Below are positions 1,185 through 4,100 of a stretch of DNA of 64,000 nucleotides, piece by piece (position 1 is the first letter of the stretch; each line of letters starts with the position of its first letter). The translations under genes and the position numbers were made by a program. The notes under the pieces were generated by a model, which saw only the letters and a list, made by a program, of their open reading frames with translations, did not search any database and was not told where the DNA came from. This DNA comes from Hormiphora californensis (taxonomy: Eukaryota > Animalia > Ctenophora), in assembly GCA_020137815.1 (NCBI GenBank), contig CM035362.1, positions 6,014,001 through 6,078,000 of the forward strand. Direction: 5' to 3'.

Positions 1185-4100
1185 CTGTGTGATTGTATCT
1201 CTTTTGTCCATGATGGCCCTCATTGCAGCAGCGTTAACCAACCTCTCCAGCTTGGCCCCTGATATAGAAAGAGGTGGTTGAAAGTGAGGGGGGGGAGTTT
1301 GAACACGTCGGTAAGAGGGGTAGAACACGGTCAATTGGTACAGACCTGTCATTCCAGGACACCCAATTGCTAGTTGTCGAAGGTCCACATCCTCATCAAG
1401 TGGTTTATCACGGGTGTGAATCTTCAGAATATCAACAATACTCTAAAAAGAGGAGGAGAGTTTTAATTAGACTAGGATGACAATGTTGAGTGTCGATTCA
1501 GCACGAGAGATCTCAATCGATCTAATTAAGAACCGAGAGCAGCAACAAGTTGGAACCAACTTGTTTCACTCGGTTAAACTAGGATGAATATAATGGCAGA
1601 GATTGAATACTATGGGGGGAATACTATTCAGAATTATAGTGTCAATTTATTTGATTTAGTACCATTATATCGTTGTCTATCTTGTTAATATAGTGGGTGG
1701 GCTTTAGCCTTTAGAATCTCCAGAGTGTGATTTATACAGTATAAAATTAACAGATAGAATGACGTGGCTTGGCAAAATGAATTTTACCTCAAAAAGGTGA
1801 GGGGCTAGCATCATGATTCATGATAGTTTACCTCAAGGGACGGTGGTGTAATAGCAATTTTAGTATCAAACCGGCCCTCCCTTAGTAGTGCGTCATCCAG
1901 GGACTGGTGGTCGTTCGTTGCTGCTATCACAATCACATTAGATGTATCGTCAAATCCTGGAATACGGTTGTGAAAACCAGTGAACTTAGATGTGATTGGT
2001 TTTGGAGAACTCCGATTGTAGTCATCATCCGATACTACCATATATGGGTATAACCTGTCATTCCCATATATGGACATCACAATATCACATATCACTATGC
2101 TCACCATCCATACAAGATAGCAACTGGTTTAGTGTCATCCTATTGGAGTATCCCACTTCATTTAACTTTCTCTTCTGGCCAATGGAATCAATCTCGTCAA
2201 TGAATATGATTGAGGGAGAGTTCGCTATAGCATCCTGGTGTTAGGGAGTTGTTGTTAGGGAGTTGTTAGGGAGTCAATGAATATAATGGAAGGAGAGTTG
2301 GCTATTGCATCCTGAAACGGAATTCTGTGATCCCTCGAGCAGATCCTAAAGGTCCTCCCAAACTACTATGTCCCTTGCTGCGCGCGACCGGATTTTAGAC
2401 GGCCATAGCTCCACCCCCTGATAAGCTAGAGACTTGAAATTTGTTTTGTAGGGAGATCATATCGAGTTCTTCGTACAAAACAAATTACAAGTCTCTATCT
2501 CATCAGGGAGTGGAGTTATGACCGTGGGAAATTTCACAAAACCCGAGTGAGGGACATAGTAGTTTGGGGAGTACTTTAATGCATACTGTACTATTTTATC
2601 TGTTGCTAAACTAACCAAAAACCCGGAGCTACAACTGCTGATAAAGATCATGCCCAAGTTGGGGAAGGGGGGGGGCAGCCCAACCCCCCTAAGGAGGATT
2701 ATGATCCCAATATATAATTGTACCTCCACGATATCTGGAACTATGTTAGACTGGGGGGGGGGGACATTTTTATTGCCCCACACGGTATAATACCTCAAAC
2801 AATTTCCTGACTCGACCAGCTCCTACGCCCACAAAAACTTCCTCAAATCCACTGCCAGATGTATGATAGAAAGGAACGTTGGCCTCCCCAGCTAGCGCCT
2901 TCGCCAGGAGAGTCTTTCCGCAACCTAGATGGGAATTGTTGTTAGAGAGTTTTAGGGAGTTGTTGTTAGGGAGTTTTAGGGAGTTGTTAGGGAGTTGTTA
3001 GGGAGCTGTTAGGGAGTTGTTGTTAGGGAGTTTTAGGGAGTTGTTAGGGAGCTGTTGTTAGGGAGTTGTTGTTAGGGAGTTGTTTCTTGTGATGGACAAG
3101 AAATTGCCTTGCTCGACCCTGTCTCATATAAAAACATGGGTTCAACAACCGCAACCTGTCAATGGAAACAGTTAAAACTTGATGAACTATATGATGGTCT
3201 AAATGGATCAAGATAACTAAACCCCATATCTTGGTACTTGGTAATTAATTAATTAATTACGGAGGAGGAGGGCAATTAATTACCGGGTGGTCCGGAAAGA
3301 AGGTAACCCTTTGGAATAGCTAGCACCCCATATCCTGGTACTTCTCAGGGTGCACCAGGTACCCCACAAGGTGCTCCAATTCTTCTTGGCGTGCTCGTTG
3401 CCTGGATATTAGTAATGATAATTAGTGGTAATTGATGTATAATTAGTAACATTAAGTGCTAATCAGCGATAATTATTGATTAAAAAAGTGCTCATGAGTG
3501 ATACTGAAACATGAACACTGAAGTAACAGAACTAAAATAATATAGAGTAACCCCCATGATGTGATAAAATGCTCCAATTAACTAATTAATTAATTAATCA
3601 ATTAATTACTCAATTATTTAACTAATTAGCAACTCAATTTACCGGCTACATCATCAAATGTGACATCAGGAGTCGTCACCTCGTAACTCCCCTCTTCAGT
3701 CATTAGAGATGAGAGGGATCCCCCAGAGCCACCTGACTGATGACTGTAAACATACACAAGCATTCCTGGGGGGATGTTACTGTAAACATAAACAAGCATT
3801 CCTGGGGGGGGGGGATGTTAAATGTGAACTCTAAAGGTTTGTTTCTATCATGAGAAGATAATACACCCCACATACACACACATGTGCCACCTTGTATATG
3901 GGGAAACTTGCTAACATAACAACAAGGGGGAACGAGCAACGAGGGATGTTGTGGGATGATGCTAAATTAGGTCTTGTGGATATTACATAGTGGTTAGAAT
4001 TTAATAAGAAACGGAAATCAATAGATATACGGCCTATGGGTAACTAAAATTAAAATTAATTGGTTAAGATAAATAAACAATTTCAATAATTATACTCCAT

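What the first reader, a model, noticed from the sequence alone, without database searches (positions are those of the whole stretch)
2200..2320. Orphan acceptor copy with 5 of 5 silent differences
Seen: the intronic cag|GAT GCA ATA GCC AAC TCT CCT TCC ATT ATA TTC ATT GAC versus the exon cag|GAT GCT ATA GCG AAC TCT CCC TCA ATC ATA TTC ATT GAC. Both encode [13 protein letters not shown], yet the copy breaks off into a simple repeat. It looks like the start of a different allele or paralog of the exon left behind.
Basis: seen in the sequence. Interest (0 to 1): 0.7.

Follow-up and report, generated by a model that had tools for sequence, protein, structure and literature searches.

The report
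Leftover exon start from another allele
An intron of a YME1/FtsH-type protease gene holds a real, duplicated splice acceptor plus the first 39 bases of the next exon, and it differs from the exon only at silent positions, most likely because it was copied or refreshed from other alleles in a very polymorphic animal; such exon-edge copies are common in this genome.

Summary
On the minus strand, 2311-2273 repeats the first 13 codons of exon 2234-2105 of an FtsH/YME1-like gene, behind its own CAG. It lies 77 nt upstream of the exon, with 5 of 5 silent differences (P about 7e-4 under neutral decay).

It is not a long-read artefact: the orphan-repeat junction stands letter for letter in short-read contigs of two samples. 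It is not a coding alternative exon: it has no GT and a stop after 18 codons. The neighbouring paralog is not the donor.

The species is very polymorphic: 14 of 14 checked exon variants are silent. A second orphan allele differs at 5 more silent sites and shares 3 with the exon. Contig geometry implies a complete exon with at least 2 orphan-type codons, a third unit, and a haplotype without the duplicate.

The pattern is general here: 7 of 33 acceptors have such copies, and 15 of 19 variants in other exon-edge copies are silent.

Best reading: a tandem acceptor duplication fed by exchange with exon alleles. No RNA evidence. Modest interest.

The parts
2273..2311 (-). Orphan copy of the first 13 codons ([13 protein letters not shown]); polymorphic at silent sites
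2312..2345 (-). Unique intron end with pyrimidine run and CAG in front of the orphan; likely the older acceptor; no CTRAY in 60 nt
   Evidence: ancestry inferred from contig geometry
2235..2272 (-). 38-nt (CTCCCTAACAA)-type repeat with three CTAAC motifs, ending in the CAG of the complete exon; length varies by 3-nt indels
   Evidence: (table 4)
2105..2234 (-). Complete AAA exon (Walker B) of the FtsH/YME1-like gene, GTGAG donor; 8 of 8 listed variants silent
2346..2578 (.). 233-nt MITE-like element with terminal inverted repeats, 35 nt upstream of the orphan acceptor; absent in some haplotypes
   Evidence: I1, I10; joint 2346-2577 in 3 of 4 runs
2794..2924 (-). Preceding exon (Walker A tail); two haplotypes of one sample differ at 6 listed sites, all silent
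2938..3084 (-). Longer array of the same repeat before the preceding exon's acceptor
3149..3157 (-). Second, 7-nt orphan acceptor copy in the preceding intron; its AG is lost in one haplotype
   Evidence: row 3156
18462..19383 (-). Comparison: last 16 codons plus donor of an exon of the tandem paralog, with 8 intronic copies; 8 of 9 distinct variants silent

Best explanation
The copy is a real tandem duplicate of a splice acceptor and 39 exon bases, likely untranslated, whose silent-only differences likely come from exchange with other alleles of the working exon. Shown: the duplicate exists in DNA, is polymorphic, and all listed variation in it and in the exon is silent. Inferred step 1: a short duplication put repeat DNA and a new CAG in front of a full exon and left the old acceptor with a 39-nt stub. 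Inferred step 2: haplotypes with one, two or three units segregate. Inferred step 3: when unlike haplotypes pair, the stub lines up with a working exon start, and crossover or short conversion moves in codons already filtered by protein selection. Inferred step 4: the downstream CAG gives the functional mRNA, since the upstream one would give a stop after 18 codons.
For: Exact orphan-repeat junction in contigs of 3 of 4 runs laid, 2 samples, 2 studies (records 5, 13, 24; repeat-exon junction record 22). Exon variants: 8 of 8 and 6 of 6 silent; silent divergence between alleles 0.22-0.28 per silent site. A second orphan allele also runs into the repeat and differs at 5 of 5 silent sites, three of them back to the exon's state. 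Contigs 1, 2 and 7 overlap by exactly 30 nt, as at a 31-mer fork: one exon start leads both to the full exon and into the repeat. All 7 sequences that fit the counts carry at least 2 of 3 orphan states in the complete exon. In run X6 a full-exon contig and an orphan contig start at the same flank position. Window-wide: 7 of 33 acceptors have an upstream copy (chance about 0.23), and 15 of 19 distinct variants in five other exon-edge copy sets are silent, P 1e-7 at 0.21 and 3e-4 at 0.375.
Against: No RNA covers the locus, so which acceptor is used is not shown. Orphan versus exon differ at 5 of 9 silent sites, more than a typical allele pair (P about 0.05 at 0.25). The full five-state haplotype was not seen in a complete exon. 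The fork and no-duplicate haplotype are deduced from contig lengths and difference counts; their letters were not displayed, and nothing is phased over the whole stretch. Exchange itself was not observed. The CTAAC motifs need not explain acceptor choice: 22 of 33 acceptors lack CTRAY within 45 nt. In the 40-mer array 3 of 7 variants are not silent. In the paralog's array, third positions vary more than intron columns and first/second positions less, but neither contrast is significant (P 0.14, 0.15).
Confidence: 0.72

Rival explanations
1. The upstream copy is used in splicing (alternative acceptor, noncanonical intron or decay-coupled isoform) and is held to the peptide by selection of its own.
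For: It keeps a good-looking CAG acceptor, and both orphan alleles keep the peptide.
Against: No GT in the 77 nt; length is not a multiple of 3; stop after 18 codons. One variant breaks off at 2292 into a common repeat (record 31). The similar copy at 3156 loses its AG in one haplotype.
Confidence: 0.1
2. An old duplicate that decayed neutrally while the exon drifted at silent sites; five of five is luck plus selection of a striking case.
For: Only 39 nt; the case was picked by eye; P rises to 7e-3 if the exon also drifts.
Against: A second orphan allele adds 5 of 5 silent differences, three shared with the exon; 15 of 19 silent in other copies.
Confidence: 0.08
3. The stub was copied from a closer paralog elsewhere in the genome.
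For: The gene sits in a tandem family; the whole genome could not be searched; the diverged full-exon contig in X6 could be a paralog or a sister species.
Against: The in-window paralog is 55% identical over this exon and encodes another peptide. Exon depth in X1 (38) matches two haplotypes of about 12-22 each.
Confidence: 0.07
4. Assembly artefact: two haplotypes joined in tandem.
For: The window has long-read errors: an unpolished stretch near 54.4-58.5 kb and frameshifts in exon 3401-3284 that short-read contigs do not share (table 4).
Against: Flank-orphan-repeat is exact in single contigs of two samples, and repeat-exon in one. One of these may be the window's source, but not both.
Confidence: 0.03

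Closest known systems
Human F7 intron 7 37-bp VNTR with silent 5' pseudo-sites (PMC1557585; abstract seen)
   Same: A repeat unit spans an exon-intron boundary and leaves duplicate splice sites that normally stay silent.
   Different: Donor side there, acceptor side here. The abstract says nothing on silent-site bias or exchange with alleles.
Internal tandem repeats at exon-intron boundaries in human duplicated genes (PMC2812944; passages seen)
   Same: Variable tandem repeats at exon-intron boundaries, often polymorphic, in tandem gene families.
   Different: That work concerns new introns and alternative splicing; the word 'synonymous' does not occur in its main text.
[quoted passage not shown]
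   Same: A short exon duplication leaves one copy inside an intron, with a premature stop if retained.
   Different: No new intron here: the duplication covers an existing acceptor, the intron position is unchanged, and the junction is AG/GA.
Mutually exclusive tandem exons such as Dscam (PMC3236188; search listing and start of abstract only)
   Same: Duplicated coding segments with silent-biased differences.
   Different: Those are whole exons with donors; this stub has none.
High heterozygosity of ctenophore genomes (Hormiphora, PMC8527503; passages seen)
   Same: About 3.2% heterozygosity, high exonic SNP rate and indel-rich introns, the setting seen here.
   Different: That this window is a ctenophore is my recalled impression from its repeats, not tested.

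Membership tests
Splice-junction tandem repeat with silent pseudo-sites (F7 type) | Unit spans an exon-intron boundary and duplicates the splice site | tested here: met
   CAG plus 39 nt, twice, 77 nt apart
Splice-junction tandem repeat with silent pseudo-sites (F7 type) | Unit number varies between haplotypes | tested here: inconclusive
   Implied by contig forks and joint 2323-2287; not phased
Splice-junction tandem repeat with silent pseudo-sites (F7 type) | Extra site unused in mRNA | not testable with these tools
   No RNA holder listed
Mutually exclusive or alternative coding exon | Own donor and open frame | tested here: not met
   No GT in 77 nt; stop after 18 codons
Intron gain by proto-splice duplication | AG/GY site duplicated inside coding sequence, giving a new intron | tested here: not met
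   Junction is AG/GA at an existing acceptor
Haplotype-switch assembly artefact | Junction absent from independent DNA reads | tested here: not met
   Exact in contigs of two samples
FtsH/YME1 AAA protease family (host gene) | AAA domain closest to FtsH/i-AAA | tested here: met
   Top PDB hits are FtsH and i-AAA, E 2.6e-15; PF00004 in 3 of 4 exons scanned
FtsH/YME1 AAA protease family (host gene) | M41 peptidase domain with HEXXH | not tested
   The gene's 3' part was not traced below about 1180; M41 hits were seen only in the tandem paralog

The most novel reading that the evidence does not exclude
In this hyper-polymorphic animal, intronic copies of exon edges are genome-wide archives of the population's silent alleles, continually refreshed from working exons. 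At this intron the splice acceptor is caught in turnover: a new acceptor made from a branch-point-like satellite replaces the old one, while one-, two- and three-unit haplotypes still segregate.
Probability: 0.35. Interest if true: 0.5.

Novelty: new variant of a known kind. Interest (0 to 1): 0.32.

Why it matters
It shows that a silent-only difference pattern need not mean a sequence is translated. In very polymorphic species, allele exchange can likely give non-coding copies a false signature of protein selection, which matters for exon annotation and dN/dS screens. It also offers a polymorphic case of splice-acceptor replacement that can be studied within one species. The single feature probably has no function.

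Tried and rejected
No whole genome is held, so there was no genome-wide paralog search.

No RNA holder was listed; the one guessed RNA run had no cover of the exons. This says nothing on expression.

The metagenome scan with the degenerate pattern found 0 stretches. The protein search with the exon found 32 relatives, none above 68% identity.

5 of the 8 listed runs were laid (X1, X4, X5, X6, X8). Tables were cut: 50 difference rows were not shown. Four shown rows in the frameshifted exon 3401-3284 were not scored for silence.

Loose ends at 2185 and 2218 come from another AAA gene sharing the Walker B motif; by eye a proteasome subunit (recalled label). It is not the donor.

The pooled count was first 15 of 22. 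I dropped three columns outside the repeat unit of the 52.6-52.9 kb array and corrected one off-frame pair, giving 15 of 19. The 35-mer array at 8212-9456 was left out because its frame is unknown. The 33 acceptors were picked by eye and include the finding itself.

Literature: 9 searches listed no paper on silent-biased intronic exon-edge copies; the library lacks most subscription papers. PMC1783408 is not held. No supplements were read.

Full report
What is there. On the minus strand the window holds two FtsH/YME1-like genes in tandem: one at about 22.2-6.9 kb and one from at least 3.74 kb downward. The finding lies in the second gene, in the intron between exons 2924-2794 and 2234-2105. 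In transcript order that intron ends with a 233-nt MITE-like element (2578-2346), 34 nt of unique flank ending in CAG, the 39-nt orphan (2311-2273), a 38-nt (CTCCCTAACAA)-type repeat ending in CAG, and then the complete exon. The five differences are all silent. P is 6.5e-4 under neutral decay, and 7.4e-3 if the exon also drifts.

Not an artefact. The assembly has long-read errors (table 4), so this needed testing. Contigs from short reads match 2242-2339 without a difference in X1 and X4 (one sample) and 2245-2336 in X5 (another sample and study). X5 also matches 2170-2268 exactly. X6 shows no such contig among those listed. One sample may be the window's source. The pieces overlap only within the repeat, so the whole array is not phased.

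Not a coding exon, not from the neighbour. The orphan plus spacer has no GT, is 77 nt long, and reads into a stop after 18 codons. The tandem paralog has a different peptide here. The rest of the genome is not held.

The allele pool. All 8 variants listed in exon 2234-2106 and all 6 shown in exon 2922-2794 are silent; allele pairs differ at 0.22-0.28 of silent sites. A second orphan allele in sample S1 spans flank, stub and repeat. It differs from the window's orphan at 5 sites, all silent, and at three of them (codons 2, 7, 8) it has the exon's letter. Variants shared between a stub and its exon are what exchange predicts and what independent decay does not. Against this, orphan versus exon differ at 5 of 9 silent sites, somewhat above a typical allele pair (P about 0.05).

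Inference from contig geometry. In S1, contigs 1, 2 and 7 overlap by exactly 30 nt, as neighbours at a 31-mer fork do. So one exon-start sequence continues both into the full exon and into the repeat, which implies an extra, recent unit identical to that exon start. Under the difference counts given, 7 sequences are possible. All carry at least 2 of the orphan's states at codons 4, 8 and 9 in the complete exon. In X6, a 933-nt contig with the full exon runs 19 unmatched bases past the CAG. In the orphan's register these end at 2333, where an orphan-type contig also starts. This suggests a haplotype with the unique flank joined directly to a complete exon. These letters were not displayed, so this is inference, and the X6 contig could be a sister species or a paralog. 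X5 shows a joint going back from 2323 to 2287, and X6 a stub that breaks off at 2292 into a common repeat.

A genome habit. 7 of 33 acceptors picked by eye (6 of 32 without the finding) have an upstream AG plus 6 or more exon bases; about 0.23 are expected. Other exon-edge copies show the same bias: 8 of 9 distinct variants silent in the paralog's 8-copy donor array, 1 of 1, 1 of 1 and 4 of 7 in three arrays at 52-59 kb, and 1 of 1 at 3239-3222. Pooled, that is 15 of 19 after the corrections listed under Tried and rejected. In the 8-copy array plus its exon, 7 of 16 third positions vary against 1 of 32 first and second positions (P 0.001). The frame of the 59 kb exon rests on an open frame only (no Pfam hit).

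Mechanism. Shown: a duplicated acceptor, polymorphism, and silent-only variation in stub and exon. Inferred: a short duplication with repeat DNA created a new acceptor and left the old one with a stub. Haplotypes with different unit numbers pair out of register, or the stub pairs with the working exon start of an unduplicated haplotype through the shared flank. Crossover or conversion then imports codons already filtered by selection. The three CTAAC motifs in the spacer would suit a branch point (consensus recalled), and the old flank has none. But 22 of 33 acceptors also lack one, so this is only a possibility. Acceptor use is untested for lack of RNA.

Comparison. Splice-junction repeats with silent pseudo-sites are known (F7, PMC1557585, abstract; PMC2812944, passages), as is intronisation of short duplicates (PMC2891723, passages). 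My nine searches listed no paper on silent-biased variation in such copies.

Verdict. Real, explained with fair confidence, probably without function. A new variant of a known kind. Interest 0.32.

Noticed in passing
window 16859-16731, minus: In the tandem paralog the M41 zinc motif position reads GHQAG instead of HEXXH (alignment), so it is likely a protease-dead FtsH/YME1.
   Followed up: partly
window 15186-16181, minus: Intronless homeobox ORF (PF00046, E 1.9e-11) with a short 12-residue repeat, nested in an intron of the paralog.
   Followed up: partly
window 3401-3284, minus: Two frameshifts in this exon; short-read contigs show indels at 3319, 3323 and 3381/3382, so they are likely assembly errors and the gene is likely intact.
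   Followed up: partly
window 54400-58500: Homopolymer-inflated, unpolished long-read sequence inside a MIOS-like gene.
   Followed up: no
window 2346-2578, 7542-7774, about 36700-36930: Copies of one MITE-like element; the first is present or absent by haplotype.
   Followed up: partly
window 8062-7977 versus 10585-10500: 86 nt of identical exon-like sequence, with following flank, repeated 2.5 kb downstream in the paralog.
   Followed up: no
window 8212-9456: 36 copies of a 35-mer containing GGTGAG donor-like sites; the frame of the preceding sequence is unclear.
   Followed up: partly
window 22700-35600: Cluster of tandem C2H2 zinc-finger-like genes (by eye, label recalled), with a reverse-transcriptase-like ORF at about 27.2-29.5 kb.
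   Followed up: no
window 20450, 19990, 10631, 51850-51910, 42623-42657: Further orphan acceptor copies with 6-16 exon bases.
   Followed up: yes
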